From NCBI GenBank assembly GCA_044892525.1, contig CM097885.1, positions 11,720,001 through 11,784,000 on the forward strand: a stretch of DNA of 64,000 nt. The letters are read 5' to 3'. Below, one piece after another: positions 16,477-47,483 of this stretch. This DNA comes from Schmidtea polychroa. Taxonomy: Eukaryota. Both the position numbers and the translations under genes were made by a program. The notes under the pieces were generated by a model. The model did not search any database. It had not been told where the DNA came from and worked only from the letters and a program-made list of their open reading frames with translations. Numbering within the stretch: the first letter of the stretch is position 1; every line of letters starts with the position of its first letter.

Positions 16477-19400
16477 TTAAATATCGTTGAAAGCCAACCT
16501 TTGAATCATTAATTTATGATCTTTAAATTCTTTATCACTTAGACCTTTTATATATTCAGGATCAGTATTAAAATATTTAAGTTCTAAACATATAGGATTA
16601 AAAACTTGAGAATATAAAGGCTTCTCGATTTCTCTCTCGGGATAAATGATTTCAACATTATAAATATCAAGATCAGTAATTTTTGTATCATATAACTTAT
16701 TCAACTTTTCTAGATTTTTTATTATCGGTATTAAATTATTTCCAATAGGTAGAGTTGTCTTTAAATCACTTAGGATGAATCTCTTATCATCATAATTTGA
16801 TAATGATACTTTTTGAGATTCTATCAAGTGAATATCATGGTTTTCGCTTTTAATCTGATGCACTTCATCAATTTTATCTTTATGATTTGGATTCAATGTA
16901 TCTATATAATCTTGATGAGAAAGATTCTTTGCAACGGATTTCTGTATTCCTTTACATCTGTTATCCTTTACAGGTTTTTCTTCTTGTCCCTCTGGTCCTT
17001 TAGGGAATATAGGATATTTAAATGAAATAATTTCCTCTTTTTCTGGGGTTTTAAATATAATTTCTCGGGTTATAAATTCAGGGTTTTTAAATGTTTCGTA
17101 TGAATATTGTTTAGCACGAATAAATATTCCATTTTCTATAGGAGTAAAAGGTTTTTCATCTTTAAATGAAAATAATTCTCCAGTTGAATTTATTAAATTT
17201 GAAAGTATAGGATTTTCAGCTATATCTCTTTGTAAATCATGAGTTCTTATTGTTAAAAACATTGAATCTGTATCCATTGCATGCATTGATATATTAGAAC
17301 CATATATAGGTTGTAAGATGTTATAATATGTTTCATACATTTGTAATTTTGAAAGTTCTAAAATTGAAAACCCTATAAATATTGGTTTGTTGTATGTTTT
17401 ATCAAAATTCTTTAGTTCTACTGCAGTAAGATTTCCAGAAAATACTTGTGCGTTTTTAAATGTAGGCTTTCCTAGCATACGATTATAACGCTTAATGTCT
17501 TTGGTAGTATTTGTTAGGAGTTCAATATGAGTATATTTATCAACATTCTCCATTGTTTTCCCAAAGACTGAATTATTTAAAAGTTTATAATTATTATCTT
17601 TAAAAAGGTTACCTTCTCTTTTTGCAATGTTTCGACATCTAATGTTCTCCTCGATAAAAGCTTTCATGAATGGCCTCTGTTTAAATCTTATGACACTATG
17701 AACTTTTTTTAATATCATACCTCGTGAAAGATAAAATTGGAGGAGTCTATAGTGACAAAGATAAAACCTTCGATCTGTTTGATCACAAAGAAGTTTCATT
17801 GTTGGGGGTTTATCTTGTGAGATTTGCCATTCAGAAAGTTCGTTGATATCAATCTTTCTTCTTACAGGAGCTAAAGGGAAATATCTTGTTCCTGATTTTA
17901 TATCATCTGGATAAAATAAGTCACATTCTACAAAGTAACCTATTGGAGAATCTTTAGGTGTTGAAAGTATTTCTTTTATAAGAGTCTTTGATGATTCTAT
18001 TTCAATGAAATCACCCATTGGTAAATATTGAGTCATAATTCCTGAATATAAAGCTGTTGCATCTATATAAAGTATAAATAGAGGATTTTTCATTGTTTCT
18101 AATAATTCTTTTAATTCCTCATTGTTAATTTTTATATATGGATCATTAGGGTGTTTAGAGAGTCTTCTGCTAGTAGTTATTGCATTTCTAGCTTTTATTT
18201 CTCTATTCCCCATTACTGAAGAGACTCCTCCTCTAATGTTTGTTTTAATTAGATTAAACATATCGAGGTTAGTTAAAAGATCTATAATTTTATCAGCTTC
18301 TTCTATATTTGAAGTCCAAATGGTATATAATAAAGTATCCCAAGCTAAAGAGGGTGCTGTTATATAATTGTAAGGTTTAAGAACAAAAGATTTTGTAAAT
18401 TCTTCAAAGCAATCTGCTAGAATATAAACATCCAAGGATAAATACATACTTGTATATTCTCCTAAAGTTTTACACTTGAATAATTCCCACATTTTATTTG
18501 CTCGAGAATATTCTTGATTTGTAATATGATTTTTTTGAAGTTGTGAATAGAAATCTTCTTGGCTAGGAAGACTTGTTTCATTATATCTTTCAAACGAGTC
18601 AACATAGTCATAAGGATATATTCCTTTTGCTAAACATGTAGGATATTCTTCTAGAGGAATATTATTTTTTTCCAAGAATTCTCGAGTGATTTTAAAATCT
18701 TCTGGTTTCATTGTTTTAGCTATTCCATCTAGAGACATTTGAAGAAAGTTTAACGAGTCTATAAATTTTAATTTTCCATATTCAACTGATTTATATTTTT
18801 CCTTTGTAAGTCCTATAACTTTGAAAGAGTTTTTAGCATTTGCTGCTAAATGTTTAATAAATAGATGTATGTCATAACCAAAAAGATTATGAAATATAAC
18901 AGGTACAAATTTAGGAGTATGACAATTAAGATTACAATTTTTATGAGCTGCTCCTCGATAATTATTTTCCTTTTTTAAATGATCATGATCGAGGACTTTT
19001 ATATTCGGAGACTCTTCAAATGGTTGTTTACACATCCAACAGTTGGAAGTGTTTTCATATTCTTGTTGTTGTTGATTAGAAATATTTTGAGGATAGTTTG
19101 TTTTTAATACTTTAAATATTTCATGTTCTAGATCATTTATACTTTTAGTAAAATGATTCAAGACTTCTGTTTCTGAAATTCCTCGAAATGTATATTCTCT
19201 AGATTCTATGAGTTCAGGATAATTACTTTTAAATAATAATTTATAAGCAGATGGTAATTGTTTAGTTTTTTTAACACTATTAGGTTTATTCCTTTTTCTT
19301 AGAAAGGCTTTCATCCTCTCTGGTTTCATCTTCTCTCCTGAGGAGTTCTAGGAATCCATGAGTTTATTTTTCTCTATTATTTTAAAATATTGTTTAACCA

Positions 19401-19545
19401 AATCTTGTTTACGATTTATAGATTCAAAGTCCCCATAAAGCACTCCTACTGTTTGTAGTAAATTTGAAAAGTTTTTAAAATACATCTTGGGATTATTAGG
19501 CATTTTAATTAAAGCTGGATCATCTTTTTCACAAAATCTTGTATG
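16477..19545 (-). pseudogene. Protein-primed DNA polymerase B of element 1, C-terminal part
   Basis: YGDFES (ExoI), in-frame TAG 19348-19350, CxxC...DHDH...YRGAAH..CN (EndoVII-like), FHNL.GYD, KGIYPY, YIDATALY, KLLNNSVFGK, MDTDS, KG. Confidence 0.95.
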
Positions 19546-19551
19546 TTTAAT

Positions 19552-20751
19552 AGTAGTAGGATGTGGGCCATCCAGATCATGTCCCCTCCAGATCACATAT
19601 ACCCCCTCCCCCCCCCGGGGAAAAAATTTTTTTTTTAAATAAAAGGTCAAGGTCATTTATTTTTTTTTAATTAAATTTTTTGTTTTAATTAAGTGATCCA
19701 GAGGGGACCTACTTTTTTTCTTCCCAAAAATTAATGTTCCTGCCAACAGATTTTATTGACCGATACCTCATCTTAAAGCTCAGTCCAAGACCTTTCGAAT
19801 GAGCTATAGGTATCATATATATCTTTAATAGTTTTAATGTTATTAACATTTAATGACCACCATCTTTTAAAGTTAAATTATTATTATTTGTCAAAATATT
19901 ATTAAGTGATCCAGAGGGAACCTACTTTTTGTCATCCCAAAGATTAATGTTCCCGCCAACATATTATATTGATCGATAGCTTATTTTAAAGCTCTGTGCA
20001 AGACCTTTCTAAGGAGATATAGATTTCTATAATATGATGACTCATCACATTTTTAAAACAAAGACAATGACTCGTCATATTTTTAGAACGATGCCTAATA
20101 TTTTTAGAATGATTACGTCATAATTTTAGAACGATGTCTATTATTTTTAGAATGATGCCTAATATTTTTAGAATGATTACGTCATACTTTTAGAACGATG
20201 CCTATTATTTTTAGAATGATGTCTAATATTTTTAGAACGATTACGTCATACTTTTAGAACGATGCCTAATATTTTTAGAATGATTACATCATACTTTTAG
20301 AACGATGCCTATTATTTTTAGAACGATGCCTTTTAATTTTAGAATGATGCCTAATATTTTTAGAACTATTACGTAATCGATGTCTAATATTTTTAGAATG
20401 ATGCCTAATATTTTTAGAATGATGCCTAATATTTTTAGAACTATTACGTAATCGATGTCTAATATTTTTAGAACGAAGCCTAATATTTTTAGAGCGATTA
20501 CGTCATACTTTTAGAACGATGCCTCTTATTTTTAGAATGATTACGTCATATTTTTAGAACGATGCCTAATATTTTTAGAACGATTACGTCATATTTTTAG
20601 AACGATGTCTAATATTTTTAGAACGATGCCAAATATTTTTAGAACTAATAATTTTTGTTTTAATTATCGAATACGTAAAAATATAATTTTGTTTAAATCG
20701 TTGATTACATATTATTATTTTCTAAGTTTTATTATTATTATTATTATTATA

Positions 20752-20786
<35 letters not shown>

Positions 20787-20849
20787 CTATCCGACAAAAT
20801 ATTCTGTCCCCCTATGGGTATTGCTCACAAAGGTACTACTCACACTCAA
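19552..20849 (+). repeat. Left TIR of element 2, including ~20-bp tandem array
   Basis: Reverse complement of 32008-33431; array of TTTTAGAA(C/T)GATGCCTAATA and TTACGTCA units at ~20080-20645. Confidence 0.9.
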
Positions 20850-20869
20850 TATGTCGTAAATTATTATTA

Positions 20870-20892
20870 TTATTATTTCAAATACAAGTTCA

Positions 20893-20961
<69 letters not shown>

Positions 20962-21076
20962 CAAAAAATCTAAAATATGGTTTACACACACACACACACA
21001 ACCCATTAACAATTATTTGTATCAATATTAGTGAAAACCTAAAATATCTTCTACACACATATACAACCCATTAAAC

Positions 21077-21138
<62 letters not shown>

Positions 21139-21251
21139 CAAAAAATCTAAAATATGGTTTACACACACACACACAACCCATTAACAATTATTTGTATCAA
21201 TATTAGTGAAAACCTAAAATATCTTCTACACACATATACAACCCATTAAAC

Positions 21252-21307
<56 letters not shown>

Positions 21308-21420
21308 CAAAAAATCTAAAATATGGTTTACACACACACACACGACCCATTAACAATTATTTGTATCAATATTAGTGAAAACCTAAAATATCTTCTACAC
21401 ACATATACAACCCATTAAAC

Positions 21421-21492
<72 letters not shown>

Positions 21493-21720
21493 GCAAATAT
21501 TAGTCAAAAACATAAAAACACACACTCAACCAATTAACAATTATTATTATCAATATTATTATTATTGCAAATACTAGTCAAAAACTTAAAATTTTTTTTT
21601 TACACACACACAACCCATTAACAATTATTATTATCAATATTAGTGAAAACCTAAAATATGGTTTACACACACACACACAACCCATTAAACTTTATTATTA
21701 TCATTATTATTATTATAATT
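20870..21720 (+). repeat. ~170-180 bp tandem repeat with AAT and CA tracts
   Basis: Three near-identical units CAAAAAATCTAAAATATGGTTTACACAC...CCCATTAAACTTT plus degenerate copies. Confidence 0.9.
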
Positions 21721-22066
21721 ATTATTATTATTAGTGAAAAAACCTTAAATAATTTTTACATACTAAGTTATGGGGTAGAGTATTATTATGTTTGCAGTAT
21801 TCTGCCTTTACAGGAAGTTGTCAATAAGGAGCGATAATTTTACACACACATTCTATATACACATACCTTGTTTAACATGGGTGTATATACTCATAGTTTA
21901 TCCGACAAAATATTCTGTCCCCCTATGGGTATTGCTCACAAAGGTACTACTCACACTCAACATATCGCAAGGGTATATTAATTAGGGTTAGTAAATAAAA
22001 CCTATCACACATACTATTTAAACTATAAAAATCAAGACAAGAGAGGACAAGGCAAAGTTTATGCAA

Positions 22067-22291
22067 TTATTATTGCCAGGCCTAATGAGCAGTGACCAAA
22101 TATCTGTGCCTGAAAGACACGGTGGATATTTGTTCGCGTCCACAAGGGTCGTCTGTGCCTCCCCCAAGTGGGGTCAAAAGAACCTGGGCATTATAGTTTT
22201 CCGTACGGAACATTACGCCTAGCATGGGTAGTCAACTACCAGCACATTCGAAACGTATAATTTCAAAATACATGCGTCATTGGCACTATAA
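22067..22291 (+). ncRNA. Candidate structured RNA with degenerate hammerhead-like frame
   Basis: GC-elevated island with multiple hairpins; CTAATGA 22082, GAAAC 22250, stem ACGTAT/ATGCGT, GTC 22276, TGCCA/TGGCA closing stem. Confidence 0.35.
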
Positions 22292-24905
22292 CCAAATTAA
22301 TTAATGTTTTCACTAACACAAATATATATTTACAGAGGCCTCCCACTAGTTGGATTACAACCGCCCACCACGACGATCAGCTTGTAAATATATATTAATT
22401 AAGGGATAAAGAGGACCCACCCAACCCTATTATATTTAATTTACAAATTTTTCTCGCTCTTCTGATGGTATTCTATCTCAAAATTATCATCTCCATCGGG
22501 CCATTTGGAATACATCTTGCGAATTGGACGTATTTCTTAGTTTCTGATGTGGCGTCAACTATCATTGCTAAAATTTATATTGATTTAAAAGCAATTAACT
22601 TACATTATCTAGCATTTTATCGTCACAGGCTTGATAAATTAGGCAACTGTTATTTGTGGTATACTTTTTCAATGTCATTTCCCACCATAAAACACAGATA
22701 CCTAAATATAATATATATATTTTAAAGAATTAATTCATGTCTTACATTAATAATAATATTCTTCAGGTAGTACTTTACAATATCTCATTGCTAAAACATC
22801 GGTTTTTCCCATTTTTCTTGACATTCGTTGAAAGTTTACATAATTTAAGTCTGATAATTCATGTTGAAGGACACCCACAATCAGCTAATTCATTTAAGAA
22901 ATCCAGAACATAGCAATGTTTCACCATTTTGTCTGGTTCATTTTCTTCTATAATTCATGTTTTAATAAGAAATTTCTAAATCCAGAACATAAGTCATTTA
23001 GTGTTTCACCATTTTATCTGGTTCATCTTCTTCATAATCATATAATTCATTTTCTTCATTACTAAGTAAAATAATTAAAATATTGTAGTAAATTCTTTAT
23101 TTACTTACTTTATGGATACTAAAACGAAAGAAATAAAGTTATATCAAAAGTATATTTAAATAAATTAAATTTAAATAATTTAATTTAGTTATTTAAAAAT
23201 ATTTAAACAATTTAGTTATTTAAGCATATTTAAACATTAACATTATTATATAGTATAATTTTATATAATATTATAATTTTATGTACACTTATATATCCTT
23301 CATTTAATTTTTTAAATTCAAAATTTATAATGAAGATTCTTTGAATTAAAAAATATTCTGTTAGTATTTCCAGGCAGTAAACAACGAATTCAATAATTAA
23401 AATCTTAATTTTCATGTTGTTAGGGTTGTGGCCAGAATTTAATCGCCATCTAATCGTTTGTTCTCAATTTCGCTCATTTTTGTTCAAAACATTCAGGTGA
23501 GTTGTTATCTGGAAAGTTTCTTTGAGCTCAGTTTTGTTAAAACACTCACGGTATTTTTGAGGGACGTGACACTGGGAATAAATTAACAATGGGTGGTCAT
23601 CCATACATGTTGTTGGTTTGAACTGTTGATTTATTTTAGAAATATGTATATTAAAAACATTTAAGGTATCATTCAGTAAAATAATATAGTATTTTTGAGT
23701 ATTTTTAGTTGATTTATAAATAACAGTATTTTGATATATCAATAAAGACCATATACTCCTAGTTTATCCGACAAAATATTCTGTCCCCCTATGGGTATTG
23801 CTAGCAAGGGTACTGGTCACATTCAACATGTCGCAATATTAATCATTTAGAAATTCTTAGGTAAGATAATCAGAAATTTGTGAATATTTTAAATGTAACT
23901 TTACACTTATGTCGAGCGACTAATTTATTGGTTAACTTTGTAGTCATTTAAAGCAAAAATTAATTTATTCATCTAATGTTCGTTACAATAGTTAATAATA
24001 TGAGAAAAACATGGTCATTATTCATTGATAATTTTAAATTCTTTATCATTTGGAGTAAATTTGTTTGAGGCAAAAATAATTAAAGGAGTCATAATAGAAA
24101 TATGGTTATCATTTAACCAAATAAGGTGCTTATTAGTTAAAAATATATATTATAAAGTAACAATTATTTTCTAATTTAATTAGATGATCATTAGACGTAA
24201 TATATCTTTGCGAGAAATTTAAGATGTTTGAGTAACCAAAACATGGATATTTTGTGCGATAAATTTATTAATAGTGCTTAATTTTCTCATTTTTAGTCAT
24301 TTAAAATAATATTTAGCAAAGGTAATTTAGCAAAATATCACTTATCCATCCGATAATAATATTCCTTCAATAGATTTTACCTTTAATATTCAACCGATTT
24401 AATTTCTAATTAAAATCATAAAATTCCTTCAATAAAGATCAATTTTCTTTAACCGTTGTCGATTTCCAACTTTTAAGTCAATATTTCTCAAGTTTTGTCA
24501 CTGATGTCCCCACAATGAATAAAATAACTTCTTAAGTAAAATAATTTAAAGCAATAACCTTTGATATCAATTATCTCTAAATATTTCAAATATTTCATTG
24601 TGAAAACCAAGTAAATTGATCATTAACCCTAAAAGACTTAATAAAACAGTGGATAATTAATAAAAAACTGGTTCTAAAACATAAATCTAAATTACTGTGC
24701 AATGACATTCATCACAACCTAATAAACCTCTAAAACGATATAATTTCACAGGAACTATTATTAATTCATAGCTAAATACTGACTATTTCCCTTTAAAATT
24801 TTACCAATAAGAACATTGTCGATTTAAATAGAGATTTCAAACATTTCCACCATAACCGATTCCTCACCAAATATTTCTACCATTTTAAACACCCCCTTAA
24901 AAATC

Positions 24906-24965
<60 letters not shown>

Positions 24966-25048
24966 TTAATAATAATAATAATAATAATATTAATAATATT
25001 AATAATAATAATAATAATAATAAAATAATAATAATATTAATAAAATAA

Positions 25049-25079
<31 letters not shown>

Positions 25080-25109
25080 AACAACAACAAAGGATACAAA
25101 ATACATTTA

Positions 25110-25493
25110 TTAATCATCAAATTTTTTATACAACAACCAAGCTAAACAATGTTGACCGCATGTTTGTGTCAAGGGATTTTGAAACATTGTTTTATTATAT
25201 ACAATAGGTTTCCCCATTGTTTGTAGTTTTGATACCAACAAAGCAGGGTAATAGAAACCCATAGGATCGAACACGAATATATTACTAGGTTTCACATATA
25301 TAGCAATCCAATGTTCTCCACCAAGATGAGACGATTGAGTATTGACGATTATGGCTTGATTATTGCTCAAATATGGGATTTTATCGAGAGGAAAAACTCC
25401 TACAAATTCATTTCCCAATATCTGTTTTCCAATTCTATTGACCTGAACAGAACTACTTTAATAAATTAAACAGTATTGAAAAACTTACTCCAT
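25110..25493 (-). CDS. Adenain-like protease, two exons (intron 25453-25488)
   Basis: ATG GA|gtaagt...tag|T TCT GTT CAG gives MDSVQVNRIGKQILGNEFVGVFPLD; GEHW, FDPMG, Q..LTQTCGQHC. Confidence 0.9.
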
Positions 25494-25521
25494 GACAACT
25501 TTTTGATGTTTCTGTATACAT

Positions 25522-26742
25522 TTATACTAGCACGGTTCTATTTGCAGTAATTTGAACTTCATTTTCAAATACTCCATATATAATAACATGTACCGGTTCA
25601 GTAATGGCCTTTGCAAACTTTATATCCAGTCGTAAATTCCCGTTTTGTGGTAATTGACTCTGATTTAAATCAAAATCGGGAGCTAGAACAAATGTGAAAA
25701 ATGGGTATTTGCTTTTAAATTCTTCAAGAGTTATTCCACAATTCAAGTTTTTATCTAAATAACCCAGATTTCTAACAATACTCTGCATATATGTCGCACA
25801 GTAATTATCATTCTCGAAATCTTGAGTATATGTTTCTCTATAATCAGTATTTTTCGATAAAGTCAATGAAGTAACACCAAAATTTTTGAAAATTGAGCTG
25901 GAAGCAGTATACGATCCATTATATTGCGTTTCACTTTGAAATGTTACCAGAATAAAATTAGGCATTCTTCTGTCACCAAATATTTGTTCTTTATAGAATG
26001 ATGAAGCACCTTTAGCAATAGCAAATTGTACAATTTCCTTTGTTTTTAAAGGATAAATTGCATGTTTTGAATTAAGCCCCAATTGATGACCAGCTAATAC
26101 TGACGGGTCTACTCGAACTCTTCTCACCAATAATTTTGCATCAACTAATTGACATATTGGTGCACCAGTTGCACTAGTAAGAGACAATGCAGAATCAGAC
26201 CTTTTCAGTCTAATATGTATATTAACTCCCGGTAGTAAATATTTCGGTTGATCCATAAAATCAAGTTGTAATGATGAGCACATAGTGAATACTTTTGAGC
26301 CTTTAACCCACTTTTTTCTTTCATCATCACTGCCATAACCCATAGGTGTAAGACATGTATTTTTAGTATCAGAATTGTAATTTAAAATAGTTTCTATTAA
26401 TGCCTTGTGAATGAATGTATTATTTCCGCCCTCAATCTTGATATTATTAAATCCCAACACTGCATCTTTAAACAGAGTATGAAACATGAAATTGTTCGGT
26501 ATTACATCTGTATTGGCATCCAAAACCTTTCTATCTTTATCTACAACCTTGATCTGAACAGTCAATAAAGTATCGTTCAAATCTAAATATTCAGTTTGCG
26601 AACCATTAATATAAAACTCGATATCATTTCTACTATCAGTAATTGAATTCATAGGAAAAACTTCCTCAAAGGCACCAAATTCTATTACTGCCTGGGGCGA
26701 CGGTCTATCAAATATACATAATTCGGATTTACCACAAATCAT
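25522..26742 (-). CDS. Major capsid protein
   Basis: 406 aa; SEL.IF..P..Q, YLDL.DT.L, Q.KYLLPGV, G.LRLDIKF, QI...R.V Maverick capsid motifs. Confidence 0.9.
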   Translation of the reverse strand: MICGKSELCIFDRPSPQAVIEFGAFEEVFPMNSITDSRNDIEFYINGSQTEYLDLNDTLLTVQIKVVDKDRKVLDANTDVIPNNFMFHTLFKDAVLGFNNIKIEGGNNTFIHKALIETILNYNSDTKNTCLTPMGYGSDDERKKWVKGSKVFTMCSSLQLDFMDQPKYLLPGVNIHIRLKRSDSALSLTSATGAPICQLVDAKLLVRRVRVDPSVLAGHQLGLNSKHAIYPLKTKEIVQFAIAKGASSFYKEQIFGDRRMPNFILVTFQSETQYNGSYTASSSIFKNFGVTSLTLSKNTDYRETYTQDFENDNYCATYMQSIVRNLGYLDKNLNCGITLEEFKSKYPFFTFVLAPDFDLNQSQLPQNGNLRLDIKFAKAITEPVHVIIYGVFENEVQITANRTVLV

Positions 26743-27101
26743 TTTGCAAATATAGTTCCATGTCCTTTCATTCGTTTGTTTATACGCGATATTCCATGCC
26801 CTTTACGTTTTGGCGCTGGGACTGGAGGTGTATCTTTTTGAAACATACCAGCAACTCCAGGTAGAACCTTCCCTAACTCAGCTAAAGCATTTGTTTTTAG
26901 GGATGGTAATATTTTCTGTTCATTCATAATCACATCTTTTGCAGTTTTCATGCCAAAACTACCAATACGTTTAAGAATGGGAAGTGCAAATCTCCCTATT
27001 GTTTTTAACCAACCTGATCCATACTGTTTACCAATAAAATATGGTAATTCACCACCAGATTGGCTATCACTATACATACTAATAATATCGGAATTAGCCA
27101 T
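26739..27101 (-). CDS. Small basic core-like protein
   Basis: Q.GG...F.G.Q.G.G motif, amphipathic helix, K/R tail; position between penton and MCP. Confidence 0.75.
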   Translation of the reverse strand: MANSDIISMYSDSQSGGELPYFIGKQYGSGWLKTIGRFALPILKRIGSFGMKTAKDVIMNEQKILPSLKTNALAELGKVLPGVAGMFQKDTPPVPAPKRKGHGISRINKRMKGHGTIFAK

Positions 27102-28161
27102 CTACTTTACGAAAATGTAGTGTCAAATGAGTTTTTGAGTCTTTTGGGAAGTTTATAAGTTTTCCACTATCGTCACGAATATTTATTTCTATATTGTTTA
27201 TACATGAGCTTGAAATTGGTAAATACATGGGATTATCTATATTTATATTGACAACTTCATCATGTTCATATTTTCCAATCCACACCGATTTCAATAGAGG
27301 AACACTGGAATCACCAACTATTATAGGCTCAATAATATTAGTATATATGAACATTTGTTGATGATGTTCAAGTATTCTTGGTTTACGTATACCAGCCGAT
27401 TTTTCCCGATATTGCTGCTTCTCTAATCCAAGTGTATTTGTCAAATTTTTATCAAATGTAACTTCGCAAATGTCATCATTCAAACTGAAGGTAAATAACA
27501 ATTCTTTCACAATGTCCAAACTTTTAAATATGTGTGAACAATTATACTTTAAATATTTAAGTAACACATCAAGTTTATCAATATATAATTCGTCAGCGAA
27601 GGTGAATGATTCTTCAACTTCATTATTATACGACACTGAAATTTTGATTTCTTCTCTCATTACACTGTTTGCTTCAAATAGATCAAAGCGTAATAAATAT
27701 TCTGTTTCCATAACTTCATTTTTCAACTTATTGCAACCCATTCGTCTGGCATCTTCAATATATTCGAATGTTATTGTAAATGGTTTAAAATCACAACTGA
27801 TATTTAATCCATCCTTGTAAAACATAGTGCAATGCTGATCTAATATTTGATTCGGAATATGATATGTTTTATCATAATTACTGATAATAAAGATACCACT
27901 ACATGTTTTCATAGCATTCCTTTTGAAATCAATCTTACATTGACTATAAAATGGGAATGTATTGTACACGAATGTAAAATCTTGCAGTGCAACTTCCCAG
28001 TCACCATTTAAAGAAATCGGATTCTGGAGATTGACCATGAATTTACTGGCTTGATTATCTGGATGAATAAGCGGGCAACTATTGCTTGGTAAAATAGTAT
28101 AAAAATTCACTTTACTAGATCCTTTTCTGATATCCATGATGGGTTTTGATAACCATGCCAT
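27094..28161 (-). CDS. Minor capsid protein (penton)
   Basis: FY.ILPSNS, L.GDWEVAL, FIYTNIIEP..VGD..VPLL, IRDD.G..I.F, LHFR; exact start uncertain. Confidence 0.9.
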   Translation of the reverse strand: MAWLSKPIMDIRKGSSKVNFYTILPSNSCPLIHPDNQASKFMVNLQNPISLNGDWEVALQDFTFVYNTFPFYSQCKIDFKRNAMKTCSGIFIISNYDKTYHIPNQILDQHCTMFYKDGLNISCDFKPFTITFEYIEDARRMGCNKLKNEVMETEYLLRFDLFEANSVMREEIKISVSYNNEVEESFTFADELYIDKLDVLLKYLKYNCSHIFKSLDIVKELLFTFSLNDDICEVTFDKNLTNTLGLEKQQYREKSAGIRKPRILEHHQQMFIYTNIIEPIIVGDSSVPLLKSVWIGKYEHDEVVNINIDNPMYLPISSSCINNIEINIRDDSGKLINFPKDSKTHLTLHFRKVDG

Positions 28162-29162
28162 TTGACATAGTATTGTTTATCCTTGCCTTTATTTTTAGTT
28201 TTCAATATCTTCTGAATTCTAAATACTTTTGGGGGAGGAATAACTTGTAATTCTTGTTCATAAAATTTTCCTTGTACAATATTGTTATCATCGTCTTTGA
28301 TGACATACATTACAGGATTCTGTTTAGTATTTATTTTTGAAATTACAAAGACTTCATCACTCCAATTTGTATCGAAATTTTTAATAAATGGTGATGCACT
28401 AATTTTACTAATTCTAACATGGTCACCTACTTTATATTTCGGTTTTGTAATTTTTTCAGGTTTTTTAGAATAGATTGTTTTTGACGTGATATCAATCGGC
28501 CTTAATCCATTCAGTCCTTGATGTGATGAGTGATTATAACTGGTTATTATTTTTGGTAAAACCAATACCCATTTTTTATTACCTTGATGCATGAATAATT
28601 TCTTTAATCTATCTCTCAAAGTTCGGTTAAATCTTTCAACATGAGCAGCTTTGTATTGAGAATGTACTGAGTAATGGTTTATTTTCAATTTAATGAGGAT
28701 TTGCTTGACTTTACTGTTGTAGAATTCTTTACCTAAAATAATAATAATAATAATAAAAATAATAATATTAATACCTAAATCAGTTTGCAAGTTTTTAGGA
28801 TATCCGTCTTTAAATAAATGATTAACAGCTTTGGACATTTCATCTGCAGATTTTGCCTTGACGGGTATTGCTCGGGCAAACCGACTGAATACATCAATAC
28901 ATGTTAAAATATATTTATACCCATTGTTAATTTTCGAATAGGGTATCATCTCCATCAAATCCATTTGCCATAAATCATTTATTCCATATGTTTTATAAGC
29001 TCTTGTTGGGAATCGTTTCTGCATTGGTTTGTTCAAACTGTACGCAAGCTGGTCTGATAACCACTTCTGAGTTTCCTTTTTCGAATTCGGAACTCTTTTC
29101 CTTAATTTTGCCACTCCACCAAAACCGGCTTCGTCTTCCGGGTTCGTCCAAATCTTCTCCAT
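28107..29162 (-). CDS. rve integrase with C-terminal chromodomain (intron 28733-28774)
   Basis: WQMDL, IDVFSR, TDLG|KEFYN restored by removing a 42-nt GT-AG intron, VERFNRT, YYVKWHGY..PSW. Confidence 0.92.
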   Translation of the reverse strand: MEKIWTNPEDEAGFGGVAKLRKRVPNSKKETQKWLSDQLAYSLNKPMQKRFPTRAYKTYGINDLWQMDLMEMIPYSKINNGYKYILTCIDVFSRFARAIPVKAKSADEMSKAVNHLFKDGYPKNLQTDLGINIIIFIIIIIILGKEFYNSKVKQILIKLKINHYSVHSQYKAAHVERFNRTLRDRLKKLFMHQGNKKWVLVLPKIITSYNHSSHQGLNGLRPIDITSKTIYSKKPEKITKPKYKVGDHVRISKISASPFIKNFDTNWSDEVFVISKINTKQNPVMYVIKDDDNNIVQGKFYEQELQVIPPPKVFRIQKILKTKNKGKDKQYYVKWHGYQNPSWISEKDLVK

Positions 29163-29220
29163 TACAACAAGAAGATTTAATATTAAATTTAATGTCTGGT
29201 AATGAAGGATTAGCACCCAT
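28993..29220 (-). CDS. Overprinted small ORF with N-myristoylation signal
   Basis: MGANPS...SSCC; ATG 4 nt after the upstream stop; kept open in element 3 (47982). Confidence 0.5.
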   Translation of the reverse strand: MGANPSLPDIKFNIKSSCCNGEDLDEPGRRSRFWWSGKIKEKSSEFEKGNSEVVIRPACVQFEQTNAETIPNKSL

Positions 29221-29223
29221 TGT

Positions 29224-29712
29224 TTATGATCGACTTCCTATTATTCCACCTAATAATGATATTGCTAAAGGTATCAATGCACCGATAAATCCCCCTTGTT
29301 GTTTATATATAATTTTTCTCATTTGTTGACGATTTTTATTATTTACTAATGATAGCAAAGGTTTCCTATGTTTACTCAATAATTGCTTTTTAGATTTACT
29401 GATTTTAATCTTGCCTTTGACTACTTTAAGTATAATATCGAGTAAATCATCGACAACATAATTTGGAAAAGATTGCAAAATACTGTTTCTTTTCATACTT
29501 GGTGCCTTTAACAATGTATTGAAAAACGGGAAACTCCGATGATTTTTAACAACTTTTACTTTCTTAGTGGTTTTACTTTTTGGTTTAGGATTTTTCGAAA
29601 TAAGATTCATTGCAGGAAAATTTTCTGTAATAAGATCTTTAGATGGAGTATAACTAGTTGTTGGTGGAACTTTTGGTTGTTTTTTACCCGATATCCTTGT
29701 TTTTGAAAACAT
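29224..29712 (-). CDS. Basic core/membrane-active protein
   Basis: K-rich; ends Q.GGFIGALIPLAISLLGG, typical of Maverick proteins next to the ATPase. Confidence 0.75.
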   Translation of the reverse strand: MFSKTRISGKKQPKVPPTTSYTPSKDLITENFPAMNLISKNPKPKSKTTKKVKVVKNHRSFPFFNTLLKAPSMKRNSILQSFPNYVVDDLLDIILKVVKGKIKISKSKKQLLSKHRKPLLSLVNNKNRQQMRKIIYKQQGGFIGALIPLAISLLGGIIGSRS

Positions 29713-29725
29713 GATTTATATGTTT

Positions 29726-30364
29726 TCAACTTTGTTTTGAACTTTGTTTATATACCATGGCACCTTTTGGGTTGAAAATATCTGTTTTTACCCGTATATC
29801 ATCAGGGCATTGTTGTGTGAAATCGAGAAATATATACCCATGCGGTATTTTCGTGGCATCTTGAAATGCACTGATAAGAAAATTACGGTTATTAGGGTAT
29901 GCTTGTCGTCCAAGAAAATCAATGACAGTTGCATCTCTAGGATTCTTGAAAATAACTAAATATTGTACATTTAAATTACGTGTTCGATGTGCACCACCTT
30001 GATGAAATAGATTTTGTGTTATGAAAATAACTGTTACACCAACATGTCTGCTGATTTTTGTGAATAAATTATTAAAGTCCTTTTCTTTATTGGCTTCTTG
30101 ATACAAATCATCGATAATGATGACATCATCTTTCTTCAAACGACTTGACCAGTTTTTATCAAAGCCCTTTACTATTTTCATGTTTTTCAACTGACAGAAA
30201 CTTGATTGCGTCAATCCGTGTTCTTCGTCGGCGCCCCTATGCCAATAAATATTGTTGAATTTTGTTTTAAACAAATTTGATTTTAGTAATTTACAAACAA
30301 ATAAAGTTTTCCCGCTACCACTTGGACCAACGATTTGGTATACTGCATCATTTCGTAATTCCAT
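29726..30364 (-). CDS. DNA packaging ATPase
   Basis: GPSGSGKT, IIIDDL, SRH, ITQN, FKNPRD. Confidence 0.93.
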   Translation of the reverse strand: MELRNDAVYQIVGPSGSGKTLFVCKLLKSNLFKTKFNNIYWHRGADEEHGLTQSSFCQLKNMKIVKGFDKNWSSRLKKDDVIIIDDLYQEANKEKDFNNLFTKISRHVGVTVIFITQNLFHQGGAHRTRNLNVQYLVIFKNPRDATVIDFLGRQAYPNNRNFLISAFQDATKIPHGYIFLDFTQQCPDDIRVKTDIFNPKGAMVYKQSSKQS

Positions 30365-30469
30365 TTTTTAAAATTTAAACTATATAATTATTGTTTATAT
30401 TGATAATTTAAATGAACTCTGTTTTTAAATACCTATATATATCAAAGTTTTTAAAATTATTTCATTAAA

Positions 30470-30934
30470 ATGCTTTCAAATATAAATTACAGGGCAAAAA
30501 CTGATGTATCAAAAATGGTATTTCCAATAGGGAAACCACAACAACTTATCAATAGAAGTAATAAATATCCAATAATATATTTCAAAACTGGTAAATGTAG
30601 AATTATGGGGTGTAAGGAAATAATCAAAGCTAGTGAATATAATGTTTATGATTTAGAAATACAATCGATAACCGTAACTTCCGATATAGGTTTTTCTTGT
30701 AATTTAAATAAATTAGCTAAATTAATACCATGCTTTTATGAACCAGAATTATTTCCAGCTTTGAGATATATAAAATATAACCCTATGTGTGTAAATATAT
30801 TCGCTAGCGGTAAGATAGTAATTCTTGGAATAAAAAATATTGATTACAAAAGTATAGTTGATAATATCATATCTGAAATTAAATCAATAATTGAAGGAAA
30901 AGAATTTTTAGATTTTTTATTATCACTTAATTAA
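30470..30934 (+). CDS. TATA-binding-protein-like protein
   Basis: Two TBP half-repeats: IYFKTGKCRIMGCK and YEPELFPAL.Y...VNIFASGKIVILG.K. Confidence 0.85.
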   Translation: MLSNINYRAKTDVSKMVFPIGKPQQLINRSNKYPIIYFKTGKCRIMGCKEIIKASEYNVYDLEIQSITVTSDIGFSCNLNKLAKLIPCFYEPELFPALRYIKYNPMCVNIFASGKIVILGIKNIDYKSIVDNIISEIKSIIEGKEFLDFLLSLN

Positions 30935-31042
30935 TTATTTATCATTCAATTAAAACAAAAACATACTGCAATCTGATTGGATGATAAACAATAGTCATAG
31001 GTATAAAAACCCTGTACCATTTCATTTTAATCATAATTCACA

Positions 31043-31462
31043 ATGACCAAGAAAATTTCAAGCACTGAAAAACCAAAAGTAGTTCCAGAACTTGTACAAC
31101 CTGTTCAAATGTTCCACAACTACAAAATGTATTTTTTAAAAGAAGAAATCAATATGAAATTGGTGTCACCGATCAAGCTAATTCCTACCCAATTTCAATT
31201 CTTAACCGGCACGCTTTCAATGTTAGATATTAAAACCATAGATGATGTTTTCAAAAGGTTGAATACGAATCTATCATGCAATCAAAATGCATTTTTCAAC
31301 AACCGATATGCAAAATTTTATGATTCCTTTGATGAAATCAGTTTCAAAGAAAACGAAAATTGGTATATAACAATTACAATCCAAGGATATAAAGTTGATA
31401 ATAATGATGTGTATTCTCCAATTTGGAAAATTATGTCTGCTAGACTTTCACAGTTATTTTAA
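31043..31462 (+). CDS. Hypothetical protein conserved with element 3
   Basis: 139 aa, homologue at 45040-45459; ATTGG and TATAAAA upstream, AATAAA downstream. Confidence 0.75.
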   Translation: MTKKISSTEKPKVVPELVQPVQMFHNYKMYFLKEEINMKLVSPIKLIPTQFQFLTGTLSMLDIKTIDDVFKRLNTNLSCNQNAFFNNRYAKFYDSFDEISFKENENWYITITIQGYKVDNNDVYSPIWKIMSARLSQLF

Positions 31463-31558
31463 TGTTGTATTTAATAAATGTATTTAGTCATATTTGTTTT
31501 CGCTTATATTCTATATTTTCTATAAACAAATATATACTATAGTTTTAAAATACTAATA

Positions 31559-31917
31559 ATGACTACAGAAAAAGGTTAATATGATTAGTTAATTATTGAA
31601 TTATTTAATATTTAGAATTTATAATAAACTTTTTATTGGAAAAATTAGCAGAAATATCTGGTGTGAAAATGGCGGATATATTATCTGTTACAAACGCATT
31701 AAATATAGACTGGGTAGCAGAGAGTGAAGATTCGGAATTTGATGAAACAGATGAAGAAAACACTCAAGATGATGAGGAAAGCATTCAAGAAATTGATGAA
31801 CCTATGGAGGAATTTACGGATACTGAACCATGTGTATATAGGGATTGTATAGATCATGTTGTTGAAAATGTTATGAACTGTGGAGATGATGAATGTGAAT
31901 GTGTTAATAAATTTTAG
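31559..31917 (+). CDS. Acidic protein with Cys tail, two exons (intron 31575-31615)
   Basis: Splicing gives MTTEKEFIINFLLEKLAEISG...; the same intron position is present in element 3. Confidence 0.7.
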
Positions 31918-32007
31918 TGTATATTTAAAGAATAATATTTAGAATTTAGAAAGTTTTGTCTTGAATATTTTTACCAGTAACTTTGTGAGTAGTACATTTG
32001 TAACTTG

Positions 32008-32072
32008 TTGAATGTGAGTAGTACCTTTGCGAGCAGTACCCATAGGGGGACAGAATATCTTGTCGGATAGAT

Positions 32073-32142
<70 letters not shown>

Positions 32143-32143
32143 C

Positions 32144-32221
<78 letters not shown>

Positions 32222-33431
32222 CTTAGAAAATAATAATATGTAATCAACGATTTAAACAAAATTATATTATTACGTATTCTATAATTAAAACAGAAGAATT
32301 ATATAATCAATGATTTAAACAAATTATATAATCATCGATAATTAAAACAAAATTATTAATTCTAAAAATATTAGGCATCGTTCTAAAATTATGACGTAAT
32401 CGTTCTAAAAATAAGAGGCACCATTCTAAAAATATTTGGCATCGTTCTAAAAGTATGACGTAATCGCTCTAAAAATATTAGGCATCGTTCTAAAAGTATG
32501 ACGTAATCGCTCTAAAAATATTAGGCTTCGTTCTAAAAATATTAGACATCGATTACGTAATAGTTCTAAAAATATTAGGCATCATTCTAAAAATATTAGG
32601 CATCATTCTAAAAATATTAGACATCGATTACGTAATAGTTCTAAAAATATTAGGCATCATTCTAAAATTAAAAGGCATCGTTCTAAAAATAATAGGCATC
32701 GTTCTAAAAATATTAGGCATCGTTCTAAAAATATGACGTAATCAATCTAAAAATATTAGACATCATTCTAAAAATAATAGGCATCGTTCTAAAAGTATGA
32801 CGTAATCATTCTAAAAATATTAGGCACCATTCTAAAAATAATAGACATCGTTCTAAAATTATGACGTAATCATTCTAAAAATATTAGGCATCGTTCTAAA
32901 AATATGACGAGTCATTGTCTTTGTTTTAAAAATGTGATGAGTCATCATATTATAGAAATCTATATCTCCTTAGAAAGGTCTTGCACAGAGCTTTAAAATA
33001 AGCTATCGATCAATATAATATGTTGGCGGGAACATTAATCTTTGGGATGACAAAAAGTAGGTCCCCTCTGGATCACTTAATAATATTTTGACAAATAATA
33101 ATAATTTAACTTTAAAAGATGGTGGTCATTAAATGTTAATAACATTAAAACTATTAAAGATATATATGATACCTATAGCTCATTCGAAAGGTCTTGGACT
33201 GAGCTTTAAGATGAGGTATCGGTCAATAAAATCTGTTGGCAGGAACATTAATTTTTGGGAAGAAAAAAAGTAGGTCCCCTCTGGATCACTTAATTAAAAC
33301 AAAAAATTTAATTAAAAAAAAATAAATGACCTTGACCTTTTATTTAAAAAAAAAAATTTTTTCCCCGGGGGGGGGAGGGGGTATATGTGATCTGGAGGGG
33401 ACATGATCTGGATGGCCCACATCCTACTACT
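32008..33431 (-). repeat. Right TIR of element 2
   Basis: Outer ~550 bp almost identical to the left TIR; array and AAT lengths differ. Confidence 0.9.
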
Positions 33432-34682
33432 TTTAATCATAGAGTTTTTAGTTGTTGAATAATGAAGACATCTTTTACATGTTCCTCCTCCACTAGTTGG
33501 ATTCTCTGGTGATGTAAAAGCTTGAAAGTTTTTTATTAAAACATAATGTTGATTATTTTGTTGTTCCAAGATTAAAAGATATATCTCCCTAGTGTTATCC
33601 TGGGGTTCGTTATCTCTAACTTCATAATCTGAAATATAAATTGGAATAATTTCTCTGCTATTAACATGTTTCCCTTTAACACGTTCATAAATATTAATTT
33701 TAAGATTATTTAAACTTTCAAATTTTGGAATGTCTTCTAGTTTCATTGGATGTTTGAATCCTTTGGGAAATATTAATTCATTTTCATATTGTTTGTATTT
33801 TGAAACTCTTTGAGGGTTTGATTCTTGAGGGTGTAAATGTGCAAGTATTGACCAGACTAAACATTTGTTATCATTATTCTGTATGTTTATAACATTTTTA
33901 GATTTAAAGGGTGTAGGAATATAAGATTTAGGATTAGATGGTAATCCTCTCCAATAATCAATCACTAAAGTTTGGAAAGAGTTGAATACTAAGTTTGAAT
34001 CTCCTAATTCATTTTCAACCTCTTCTTGTTTTGCTTCTACTGCTTGAATTATTTCTTTGATGGTTTTATCAAATCCTTTAGTTGAAAATAAATATTTAAA
34101 GGGTATTCCAATTTCAACATCTAAAGGTGTTGTCTTTTCTTCTGCTCCTCGCCAGTATTTTGCTTTGATTATAATTTTATATTTTATAACATTATACCTT
34201 GTCGGTTTTTAATTTTTTAAAGCTTCAGTGAAAGAATTTTTAATATTTTTTTTATTTTTATTTATATATTCTCCAGGAGTTATAGGTCCATTGATTTCTA
34301 ATTGAAATTCATCTACATGATTAAAATCATCCCAGTTATATTTTTCTCTTTCAACATGATCAGGTTCTCCTTTTGAATGACATTCCTCATCGTCAGAATT
34401 TTGTTTTTTATTTTTACATTCTTTTATATGTTCTAAATAATAGAAATTTACTTTTGTTGAAAAGTTACAGTGAGAACATGTAAATATTTCTCTATTTTTC
34501 CCGATACAATTTTCAAAATGTTTATTATATCCAGAATGTAGAAATCTTCCTTTACATTTAGGACAAAGTTTTGAATTTGTATCATTAAGATTATTTTCTT
34601 TTAATAAATGAGCTTTCGATTTTAAGTGAGAAATCAATCCAGTTTTATTTTTAAAAACTTTATTACAAATATTACAATTCAT
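33432..34682 (-). pseudogene. pPolB of element 1, N-terminal part
   Basis: Zn fingers (CNICNK...HLKSKAH), in-frame TAA 34209-34211, NIQNNDNKCLVWSI, HYVLIK, CKRCL; joins in frame to 19545 after removing element 2. Confidence 0.9.
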
Positions 34683-43259: not shown

Positions 43260-43727
43260 AGTAGGGTATTGTGTGGAGTCGGGAACAAAGACATATGACG
43301 TCATCGATGACGTCACAAAGACATATGAGTCATACCCCGGGGAGGGGTTTTTTAACAAAGACCATGACTCATCGTGATGACTCATCGTGGTGACTCGTCG
43401 TGGTGACTCGTCGTGGTGACTCATCAAGGTCATATTATTATTTTTAAAAGATATTATTATTTTATTTTTAAATTTTTTCAAAGTTCCCGCCAACGAAAAT
43501 TATTCATCGATAGCTCATTTTAAAGCTCAATCCAAGACCTTTCGAATGAGCTATTGAAGGTATCATCATCATTAATATTGACAAAGTTATTATCGTTTTC
43601 CCGAGACCATTTTCAATGTCATATAATTATTATTAATCTATATACTCCGAGTCTATCCGACAAAATATTCTGTCCCTCTATGGGTACTGTTCGTAAGGGT
43701 ACTGGTCACGCTCAACAACTCGCAATG

Positions 43728-43759
<32 letters not shown>

Positions 43760-43770
43760 GTTGTTGTTGA

Positions 43771-43813
<43 letters not shown>

Positions 43814-43997
43814 GTTGTTGTTGATATTATTATTATTATTATTATTATTATTAGTTTTAGCACACACTCATTATACCAATATGAATATAGTTTTCATGGT
43901 GTATCAAATCAAAACTCCTATTTTTATAGTCTATCAACCAATCAAAATCATATGGTAGTAATATAAATAAAGCAGTATATTTTAAATTAATTTAGAA

Positions 43998-44526
43998 ATG
44001 TCGCAACCAAATTTTAGTGAAAATGTTCTAAACGGAATTGTCACCGCGAATATAGTCGACAGCCTCAATTTCCTGATCAATCGAACTGAACAAATCATTG
44101 AAGGTGAACATATCGATTATCATCAAATGATGGAGATAGAATCCCTGGAAACCAAGAAGTTATACTTCAATAGAATATTTCAGTGTCTTTTCGATGAAGA
44201 CATGAAATGGACAAGGATAATTGTAGGATTCACCTACATGAAGATAATCATTGCAAAAGGTCAACATGACTCAGAACATTATTATCAGTGGTCTTTAGAA
44301 GTAAGATTTCTTTTATAATCTATATTTTATTAATATTCATTTCTAGATAATCAAGTCCAAGTTTACCCCATGGATAGAAGCCAATGGCGGATGGGGTGTA
44401 TTAAATAAACTGGCCTGCAATTTTAAAGAAACTGATGAAATCAAAAGAAAAATGAAAAACTATATAAAACTTACAACTGGAGTTGTTATAATGTATATTT
44501 TCTGTAGATATATGAATAAAAATTAA
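43998..44526 (+). CDS. Bcl-2-like protein, two exons (intron 44301-44346)
   Basis: BH1-like LFDEDMKWTRIIVGFTY, BH2 PWIEANGGW, C-terminal hydrophobic anchor; 160 aa spliced. Confidence 0.85.
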
Positions 44527-44571
44527 TGTTATTGTTTTTTAATAGTATATTTAAATGAAAATAATTAAATT

Positions 44572-44906
44572 TTAAAATTTATTAACACATTCGCAATCGT
44601 CATCTCCACATTTCATTATATTTTCAACGACATGATCAATACAATCATTCGTAATATTATCTTTAGGTTCCTCTATAGGTTCATAGATTTCTTCATCAAT
44701 TTCTTGAGTTTCTTCATGATCGTCAAATCCTGAATCTTGACTTTCAACTATCCAGCCGATATTTAAGGCATTTGTAACAGATAATATGTCCTCAATTTTT
44801 ACACCAGCTATTTCTGCTAATTTTTCCAACAAAAAGTTGATTAATAATTCTAAATAATAAATAATTCGGTATTTAATTAATCATGTTAACCTTTTTCTGC
44901 AGTCAT
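44572..44906 (-). CDS. Acidic Cys-tail protein, two exons
   Basis: MTAEKE|LLINFLLEKLAEIAG; homologue of 31559-31917. Confidence 0.7.
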
Positions 44907-45039
44907 TTTCATCACTTTAAAACTATATTATAAGTTTGTTTATAGATTGTCTTTGTTAAATTTGCATGTCATTTGCATTAATGTTGCAATTAATAAAGAG
45001 AAAAAACAAATATGACTAATACATTTATTAAATATAACA

Positions 45040-46142: not shown

Positions 46143-46263
46143 TTTTGTTGAATAAATGACAACTAAACCGAAAACATTTTGTTATAAATAATCATCAGCC
46201 AATTAGATTTCGACCAATCAGAATCATGCATTTCAATTGCATTGAATTTGCAATGATAAATAA

Positions 46264-47470: not shown

Positions 47471-47483
47471 AAACACATAAATC

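What the first reader, a model, noticed from the sequence alone, without database searches (positions are those of the whole stretch)
19546..33437. Polymerase-less Polinton inserted into another Polinton's polymerase gene
Seen: perfect TSD, near-identical TIRs, and intact integrase, ATPase, protease, MCP and penton, but no pPolB in 13.9 kb. Excising it restores ...CKRCLHYSTTKNSMIK|HTRFC... and a ~1440-codon pPolB. Its relative, element 3, appears to have pPolB on the side where element 2 has only repeats. Inference: a helper-dependent satellite that packages and integrates itself but borrows replication, or a post-insertion deletion.
Basis: partly seen in the sequence, partly recalled or inferred. 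Interest (0 to 1): 0.75.

Follow-up and report, generated by a model that had tools for sequence, protein, structure and literature searches.

The report
Young Maverick missing only its polymerase
A recently inserted virus-like jumping element has kept its capsid, packaging and integration genes but lost its DNA-copying enzyme, so it probably borrowed that enzyme from a relative, although one copy cannot prove this and similar elements were recently reported in butterflies.

Summary
Observation largely confirmed. E2 (19552-33431, 13,880 bp) is a clean, young Maverick insertion with a 6-bp TSD and outer TIRs 524/525 identical. Integrase, ATPase, capsid and penton (both fold-confirmed), a TBP-like gene and a protease that needs splicing are open. 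It has no pPolB (best tblastn E 0.2; control 5e-73). It splits another Maverick's pPolB, which also carries two unrelated stops. The loss is derived: 6 of 6 relatives long enough to tell, and neighbour E3, carry pPolB past the protease. The 'repeat' side is not junk: 21745-24895 is a high-copy arm module seen in four runs from three studies. Homology to E3 ends inside an (AAT)n run. Best reading (0.55): pPolB was lost before insertion and the copy was replicated in trans. Rival (0.33): deletion after insertion. A multi-copy polymerase-less family is not shown, because no genome was available. polB-less polintons that kept amplifying are already reported (bioRxiv 10.1101/2025.02.07.637071). The scan noted gene-less and copy-back Mavericks elsewhere in this genome, but not this layout.

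The parts
19546..19551 (+). left target-site duplication (6 bp)
19552..20972 (+). left TIR, about 1.4 kb: 525-bp outer part, 21/43/64-bp tandem array (20077-20645), 80-bp motif copy, (TAT)n
20907..21476 (.). 169-bp tandem repeat, 3.3 copies, 97% matches
21745..24895 (.). non-coding arm module, high-copy in the species, with collinear distant homology to the arm of gene-less element E4; no pPolB remnant; longest stop-free frame 108 aa
21884..21976 (+). copy of the 80-bp motif also found at the inner end of the TIRs
22283..22381 (-). SRP-RNA Alu-domain-like stretch (first about 46 nt match well); below Rfam gathering score
23751..23837 (+). further copy of the 80-bp motif
24898..25081 (.). (AAT)n microsatellite; homology to E3 ends inside it (about 24952): inferred pPolB-loss junction
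25110..25493 (-). adenain/Ulp1-type cysteine protease; start codon separated by a predicted 36-nt intron (25488-25453)
   Evidence: Pfam Peptidase_C5 E 1e-6; intron read from sequence
25522..26742 (-). major capsid protein, double jelly roll, 406 aa
26739..27101 (-). 120-aa conserved small protein (core-protein-like by position; function inferred)
   Evidence: conserved in relatives; no Pfam or PHROG hit
27094..28161 (-). penton / minor capsid protein, 355 aa
28107..29162 (-). RVE integrase with C-terminal chromodomain; predicted 42-nt in-frame intron (28774-28733)
29224..29712 (-). 162-aa basic protein (core-protein-like, inferred)
   Evidence: conserved in relatives
29726..30364 (-). packaging ATPase (A32-like), 212 aa
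30470..30934 (+). TBP-like protein, 154 aa
   Evidence: Pfam TBP E 1e-15
31043..31462 (+). 139-aa conserved protein of unknown family
31609..31914 (+). acidic reading frame, about 100 aa; start not defined
32068..33431 (-). right TIR
33432..33437 (+). right target-site duplication
16477..19551 (-). E1 pPolB, 3' part (one in-frame stop at 19348-19350)
33432..34682 (-). E1 pPolB, 5' part (one in-frame stop at 34209-34211)
43260..52032 (.). E3: related element in the opposite orientation; different termini; integrase, ATPase and capsid frames broken
52190..59311 (.). E4: 7,122-bp gene-less Maverick-ended element with its own 6-bp TSD, nested upstream of E3's pPolB
60317..64000 (+). pPolB of the E2/E3 lineage (two in-frame stops; runs off the window)

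Best explanation
E2 is a deletion derivative of a Maverick/Polinton that lost its whole pPolB transcription unit before it inserted here, and it was replicated in trans. SHOWN: it has both ends, all morphogenesis genes, an integrase and a TBP-like gene, but no pPolB; the lineage normally has pPolB beyond the protease; the break lies in an (AAT)n run. INFERRED: (1) a template switch or annealing at the microsatellite removed about 5-6 kb, joining the protease end to the non-coding arm; (2) pPolB also carries the terminal protein (PMC11161782, passages), so both primer and polymerase had to come from a co-active relative that recognises the TIR ends; (3) the linear copy was integrated by its own or a sibling's integrase, giving the 6-bp TSD; (4) it landed by chance in an unrelated Maverick's pPolB. 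It works like a defective-interfering genome that keeps the structural half. Of the 0.55, about 0.28 is an established multi-copy polymerase-less subfamily and about 0.27 a one-off defective copy integrated once.
For: Youth: 1 mismatch and 1 gap in the outer 525 bp of TIR and a perfect TSD leave little time for a large deletion at this site. No stop in any of the 9 E2 frames compared, against stops or frameshifts in E1 and E3. Clean loss: no pPolB remnant and no match to E3's pPolB promoter/leader beyond AAT microsatellite. pPolB follows the protease in 6 of 6 fetched loci with at least 2.4 kb beyond it (33 of 70 loci had a protease hit). Gene-less E4 in the same window has Maverick ends, a perfect TSD and a homologous arm (348/416 aligned, score 105 against a shuffled maximum of 31), as expected if such ends are moved in trans. 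E2's arm letters are shared by many copies in study P1 (median 34% and 25% of summed depth in X1 and X2) but few in P2 and P3 (3%, 0%), over the 40 of 115 variant rows shown: a sub-lineage with E2's arm expanded recently. Precedent: polB-lacking polintons with signs of amplification in Pieris (10.1101/2025.02.07.637071, section 13).
Against: Only one copy was seen, and no genome was available. The arm's abundance is equally explained if it is the normal arm of pPolB-bearing copies. E4 could itself be a post-insertion deletion. The purifying selection measured (pN/pS 0.19, 1,784 codons) is between E2 and E3 and may all predate the loss. E3 lost about 100 integrase codons next to a microsatellite, so local deletions do happen in this family. 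No helper was found: both neighbouring pPolBs are broken, and the closest database pPolB is only 66-69% identical to E3's. The 40 rows were chosen by the tool as best supported, summed contig depth is no copy number, and X1 may be the source sample.
Confidence: 0.55

Rival explanations
1. Post-insertion deletion: a complete Maverick of about 19 kb inserted here and later lost pPolB by recombination at the (AAT)n run. E2 is then an ordinary decaying copy that has not moved since.
For: The junction is in a microsatellite. E3 shows a comparable internal loss in its integrase. Most Mavericks in genomes are degraded (96% in vertebrates; PMC8097293 passages). No second polymerase-less copy was found in the scan's notes.
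Against: TIR divergence of about 0.2% and no other lesion in nine frames. The loss takes promoter, leader and gene together and leaves nothing else damaged.
Confidence: 0.33
2. E2 needs no Maverick helper. It is copied by host enzymes (for example cut-and-paste by its integrase, or host-polymerase synthesis from a fold-back end), or a replication function hides in one of its unassigned small ORFs.
For: The integrase and long TIRs are intact. The 120-, 162-, 139-aa and acidic frames have no assigned family.
Against: The 120-, 162- and 139-aa ORFs also occur in pPolB-bearing relatives (L002, L021), so they are not replacements, and all are too short for a polymerase or a Tlr1-type helicase fusion. 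No new ORF above 108 aa occupies the gap.
Confidence: 0.07
3. Assembly artefact: two different copies were joined, or pPolB collapsed, at the 184-bp (AAT)n run.
For: The junction lies in a simple repeat of a high-copy family, and it was not covered by the stretch laid.
Against: Matching TIRs and TSD enclose the element, and its flanks are consecutive parts of one gene. The arm is covered in 30 of 30 bins in 4 of 4 runs, and the deepest listed internal joint is about 1% of local depth or less (15 of 107 joint rows shown). A 184-bp repeat is short for a long-read assembly (inference; the assembly method is not known to me).
Confidence: 0.05

Closest known systems
polB-lacking polintons of Pieris mannii and a second insect group (Pannagram preprint, bioRxiv 10.1101/2025.02.07.637071; sections 12 and 13 read whole, other passages; figures and supplements not seen)
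   Same: TIR-flanked polintons that lack polB while close relatives keep it; the authors infer continued mobility and leave the mechanism open.
   Different: There the loss goes with LINE or LTR cargo and two or more related copies are shown. E2 has no retroelement ORF, ends its homology in a microsatellite, and is so far a single copy.
Maverick/Polinton (polintovirus, adintovirus) elements (PMC8097293, PMC5499653, PMC11161782, PMC8502044; passages read)
   Same: 6-bp TSD, long TIRs, RVE integrase, packaging ATPase, Ulp1/adenain protease, double-jelly-roll capsid and penton; length within the 12.7-24.6 kb range of intact vertebrate elements.
   Different: No pPolB, which PMC5499653 treats as defining. 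Two predicted introns (intact vertebrate Mavericks are intronless per PMC8097293). A TBP-like gene.
Polinton-like viruses and Tlr1 elements (PMC5499653, PMC11296320; passages read)
   Same: Capsid-encoding, TIR-flanked elements without an active pPolB; Tlr1 has been called a non-autonomous polinton.
   Different: They replace pPolB with a helicase-polymerase fusion or a primase-helicase. E2 has no replacement, and its genes are 92-99% identical in protein to a pPolB-bearing neighbour.
Defective-interfering genomes and non-autonomous DNA transposons (recalled; general definition seen in PMC6431247 passages)
   Same: Keep the cis-acting ends and depend on trans-acting enzymes of a complete relative.
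   Different: E2 keeps the whole structural and integration module open and lacks only replication, the reverse of satellites that replicate themselves and borrow capsids (recalled).

Membership tests
Maverick/Polinton | 6-bp target-site duplication | tested here: met
Maverick/Polinton | long terminal inverted repeats | tested here: met
   about 1.3-1.4 kb; outer 524/525 identical
Maverick/Polinton | RVE integrase | tested here: met
   Pfam rve E 1e-7 (32.5 bits, cut-off 32.6, with the predicted intron left in) and chromodomain; 35-65% identical to relatives
Maverick/Polinton | protein-primed family B polymerase | tested here: not met
   tblastn best E 0.20 against control 5e-73. E2 is therefore a derivative, not a complete member
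Maverick/Polinton | packaging ATPase | tested here: met
   Pox_A32 E 2e-7
Maverick/Polinton | Ulp1/adenain protease | tested here: met
   Peptidase_C5 E 1e-6; translation depends on a predicted intron
Maverick/Polinton | [quoted passage not shown] | tested here: met
   model pLDDT 87.6; top PDB hits are iridovirus, PBCV-1 and mavirus capsids. No sequence-level PDB or Pfam hit
Maverick/Polinton | penton / minor capsid protein | tested here: met
   mavirus penton top hit, E 2e-8
Intact vertebrate Mavericks (PMC8097293) | intronless core ORFs | tested here: inconclusive
   36-nt and 42-nt GT..AG intron candidates; no RNA evidence obtained
PLV / Tlr1 | helicase-pDNAP fusion or primase-helicase in place of pPolB | tested here: not met
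   no such ORF; the only P-loop protein is the 212-aa ATPase
polB-lacking polintons (Pannagram preprint) | polB absent while close relatives keep it | tested here: met
polB-lacking polintons (Pannagram preprint) | LINE or LTR cargo at or near the loss | tested here: not met
   no frame above 108 aa in 20.8-25.1 kb; a decayed cargo is not excluded
polB-lacking polintons (Pannagram preprint) | amplification after the loss (several insertions) | not testable with these tools
   no genome held; contigs cannot span the microsatellite junction
Helper-dependent satellite virus | replication only with a helper; packaging of its own genome | not testable with these tools
   no helper pPolB identified

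The most novel reading that the evidence does not exclude
E2 belongs to a stable, recently expanded satellite subfamily of Mavericks that keeps capsid, packaging, integrase and its own TBP under selection and outsources only pPolB and terminal protein. With the complete elements and gene-less elements such as E4, it would form a three-tier system in which polymerase-less copies supply particles and integrase in trans, in effect a split (multipartite-like) polintovirus inside an animal genome.
Probability: 0.25. Interest if true: 0.7.

Novelty: new member of a known kind. Interest (0 to 1): 0.42.

Why it matters
How Mavericks replicate and whether they form particles has not been shown by experiment (PMC8097293 abstract; PMC5499653 passages). 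A clean natural deletion of only the polymerase unit, if it recurs at several sites, would show that pPolB and terminal protein act in trans on the TIR ends. Selection on capsid genes after the loss would show that particles matter to spread. Surveys that define polintons by pPolB plus integrase (for example 10.1101/2024.01.15.575659, passages) would miss such elements. If it is a one-off deletion, it is an ordinary decaying copy.

Tried and rejected
Whole-genome search for other copies: no genome is held. Viral contigs: no relative with the single protein (0 of 37 stretches) or the alignment (0 of 10). Look-ups in the scan's notes near this window and by E2's arm, TIR and capsid sequence, and by words: nothing; only 31 windows of this genome have notes, so this is no evidence of absence. 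RNA: no RNA holder listed; introns and expression untested. tRNA scan: 0 genes. The 80-bp motif: weak consensus fold (-6.1 kcal/mol), no compensatory pair in 10 predicted pairs, 7 copies; role unknown. The 381-nt stretch around the Alu-like match folds no better than shuffles (z -0.9). PDB sequence search with the capsid profile: 0 hits. Atlas for the 139-aa ORF: no usable hit. PHROGs for 8 small frames: two weak hits to unknown-function families. DNA of the E2 gap has no match in the 70 fetched loci. Search for a near-identical intact helper pPolB: none above 69% (word-limited searches). Rejected: E1 as helper (distant and broken) and E3 as direct parent (synonymous divergence 0.128, different termini). 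Rejected as coincidence: E2's length (13,880 bp) almost equals a 13,872-bp gene-less element noted elsewhere, since other noted families measure 10.9, 16.9 and 17.5 kb. A guess that the host is a flatworm led to one paper search with nothing relevant; the host is not established. Seven paper searches found one report of polB-less polintons; Kapitonov and Jurka 2006 and Pritham 2007 were not read and may describe non-autonomous forms.
Full report
Verdict. E2 is a young Maverick/Polinton insertion that lacks pPolB and nothing else. I favour loss before insertion with replication in trans (0.55) over deletion after insertion (0.33). The decisive test, a census of copies, could not be run because no genome is held for this window. 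That the host is an animal comes from other notes of this scan and was not tested.

Boundaries. The element runs 19552-33431 (13,880 bp) between two copies of TTTAAT, and its first and last 29 bases are exact reverse complements. The outer 525 bp of the TIRs differ by one mismatch and one single-base gap. Over the first 1.1 kb, 1056 of 1078 aligned bases match, and 21 of the 22 mismatches fall in the internal 21/43-bp array. The TIR reaches about 1.3-1.4 kb. The insertion is therefore very recent.

Genes. On the minus strand: ATPase (Pox_A32, E 2e-7), a 162-aa basic protein, integrase (rve, chromo), a 355-aa protein, a 120-aa protein, a 406-aa protein and a Peptidase_C5 protease. On the plus strand: a TBP-like gene (E 1e-15), a 139-aa ORF and an acidic frame. 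The 406-aa protein had no Pfam or PDB sequence hit. Its model (pLDDT 87.6, 50 sequences) matches double-jelly-roll capsids at E 5e-17. The 355-aa protein's model (pLDDT 82.6) has mavirus penton as top hit (E 2e-8). The protease start codon is followed by a stop unless a 36-nt GT..AG intron is removed, and the integrase holds a 42-nt in-frame GT..AG stretch. These are predictions; no RNA holder was listed. None of the nine E2 frames compared has a stop.

Absence of pPolB. Seven pPolB pieces from the two neighbouring elements give a best tblastn E of 0.20 across E2. The same search detects a 30%-identical pPolB at 5e-73 in a control stretch of the same length. The longest stop-free frame between TIR and protease is 108 aa, apart from microsatellite frames. 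E3's pPolB promoter and leader region matches E2 only through AAT repeats. No helicase or primase replaces pPolB.

The host element E1. The two flanks, aligned separately, abut in one frame of the intact pPolB in L002, so the insertion splits one gene. That gene has two further in-frame stops, and E1's capsid frame has one. E1's pPolB is about 30% identical to the one at 60317-64000. E1 is a distant, decayed family: a landing site, not a helper.

The loss is derived. E3 (from about 43260) carries the same gene block inverted, 92-99% identical in protein over the main segments, with pS 0.128 and pN/pS 0.19 over 1,784 codons. After its protease come an (AAT)n run, a 7.1-kb nested gene-less element (E4, own 6-bp TSD) and then a pPolB. 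That pPolB belongs to this lineage: it is 55-59% identical to the pPolBs of L002, L021 and L006, whose capsids are 54-57% identical to E2's, whereas E1's is 26-29%. Of 70 fetched loci, 33 have a protease hit and 8 a pPolB hit. All 6 with at least 2.4 kb beyond the protease have pPolB there; the others are mostly too short to tell. Seven are convergent with the protease and one (L023) is in tandem like E3. E2-E3 homology ends near 24952, inside the (AAT)n run at 24898-25081. E3 is not the direct parent: its termini differ and only inner TIR parts match at 75-80%. Its integrase, ATPase, capsid and pPolB frames are broken.

What fills the gap. Between the left TIR and the microsatellite lie a 169-bp tandem repeat and about 3.1 kb of complex sequence. 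This holds two more copies of an 80-bp motif found at TIR inner ends (7 copies in the window) and an SRP Alu-domain-like stretch (29.6 bits, gathering score 70). Laid against four public runs from three studies, 21745-24895 is covered in 30 of 30 bins in each, by 56,063, 7,538, 6,927 and 457 contigs, with roughly flat summed depth and 115 variant rows. The deepest listed internal joint is about 1% of local depth or less (15 of 107 rows shown). Summed contig depth is no copy number and X1 may be the source sample, but the stretch is plainly a real, highly repeated module. Over the 40 rows shown, the window's letter keeps a median 34% and 25% of depth in X1 and X2 (study P1) against 3% and 0% in X5 and X7; only 2 of 40 are nearly private in X1 (rows selected by the tool). 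So a sub-lineage with E2's arm is abundant in P1. The arm has collinear distant homology to E4's arm. This result cuts both ways: the module may be the normal arm of pPolB-bearing copies, and short-read contigs cannot span the microsatellite junction, which I did not lay.

Mechanism. Shown: intact ends, open structural and integration genes, clean absence of the pPolB unit, a junction in a microsatellite, youth. Inferred: a template switch or annealing at (AAT)n removed about 5-6 kb. Since polinton pPolB carries the terminal-protein primer (PMC11161782, abstract and passages), a copy without it can be replicated only with a relative's product. Integration then needs only the ends and an integrase. 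For loss before insertion: little time since insertion, no other lesion, gene-less E4 with a perfect TSD next door, and unchecked notes of hundreds of gene-less and several copy-back Mavericks in this genome. Against: a single copy; E3's own internal integrase deletion shows such losses occur; the measured purifying selection may predate the loss; no intact helper was found (best database pPolB 66-69% to E3's). Packaging is wholly untested.

Comparison with what is known. By the definition in PMC5499653 (passages) E2 fails Polinton membership on pPolB and is a derivative. It is not a PLV or Tlr1 element, because nothing replaces pPolB. The closest precedent is the Pannagram preprint (sections 12 and 13 read whole; passages; figures and supplements not seen, and they may show further cargo-free cases). 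It reports TIR-flanked polintons in Pieris mannii and a second group that lack polB, carry LINE or LTR cargo and seem to have amplified afterwards, with the mechanism left open. E2 differs in having no retroelement cargo, predicted introns and a TBP-like gene. Passages of PMC8097293, PMC11296320, PMC8502044, PMC6431247 and 10.1101/2024.01.15.575659 gave definitions and context but no such element. Seven searches found no other report; subscription papers, including the original 2006-2007 descriptions, were not searched.

Scores. New member of a recently reported kind; interest 0.42. The bold reading, a maintained polymerase-less satellite subfamily that supplies capsids and integrase within a three-tier Maverick system, has probability about 0.25 and would merit about 0.7.

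Noticed in passing
window 52190-59311: E4: 7,122-bp gene-less element with Maverick-type ends, imperfect short TIRs, a perfect 6-bp TSD, a 96-bp perfect internal inverted repeat (53001-53096 / 59181-59276) and several tandem arrays; its arm is homologous to E2's.
   Followed up: partly
window 19546-33437 and 52190-59311: Both nested insertions in the window hit a pPolB unit (E1 coding region; region upstream of E3's pPolB). With two cases this is compatible with chance.
   Followed up: no
window 22336-22381 (-): About 46 nt closely match the 5' Alu domain of SRP RNA (Rfam RF00017, 29.6 bits, below gathering score). It could be a 7SL-derived insert or an element-encoded Pol III RNA.
   Followed up: partly
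window 43998-44318 (+): Bcl-2-like ORF in E3 (Pfam Bcl-2 E 0.005, below cut-off), possibly continued after a short intron; absent from E2.
   Followed up: no
window 59445-59740 (+): Three micro-exon-like segments with GT..AG boundaries upstream of E3's pPolB (read by eye), like the leaders described in other notes of this genome.
   Followed up: partly
window 20773, 21884, 23751, 32075(-), 43639, 52867, 56078(-): An 80-bp motif conserved across E2, E3 and E4 even where their termini differ; two small hairpins, no covariation. Candidate cis-acting site.
   Followed up: partly
window 48040-48252: E3's integrase lacks about 100 codons; the gap is filled by a 91-bp AAT-rich piece identical to 39973-40063, part of a dispersed repeat also seen at 6155-6340.
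   Followed up: no
L019, L020, L021: These relatives carry two tandem penton-like genes.
   Followed up: no
L027, L028, L031, L039: More distant relatives (capsid 41-44% identical) place the TBP-like gene after the protease, so gene order varies within the TBP-bearing lineage.
   Followed up: no
window 7895-19329: E1's other genes (protease, capsid with a stop, integrase, ATPase, several unassigned ORFs) form a second, distant Maverick family; its ends were not found.
   Followed up: partly
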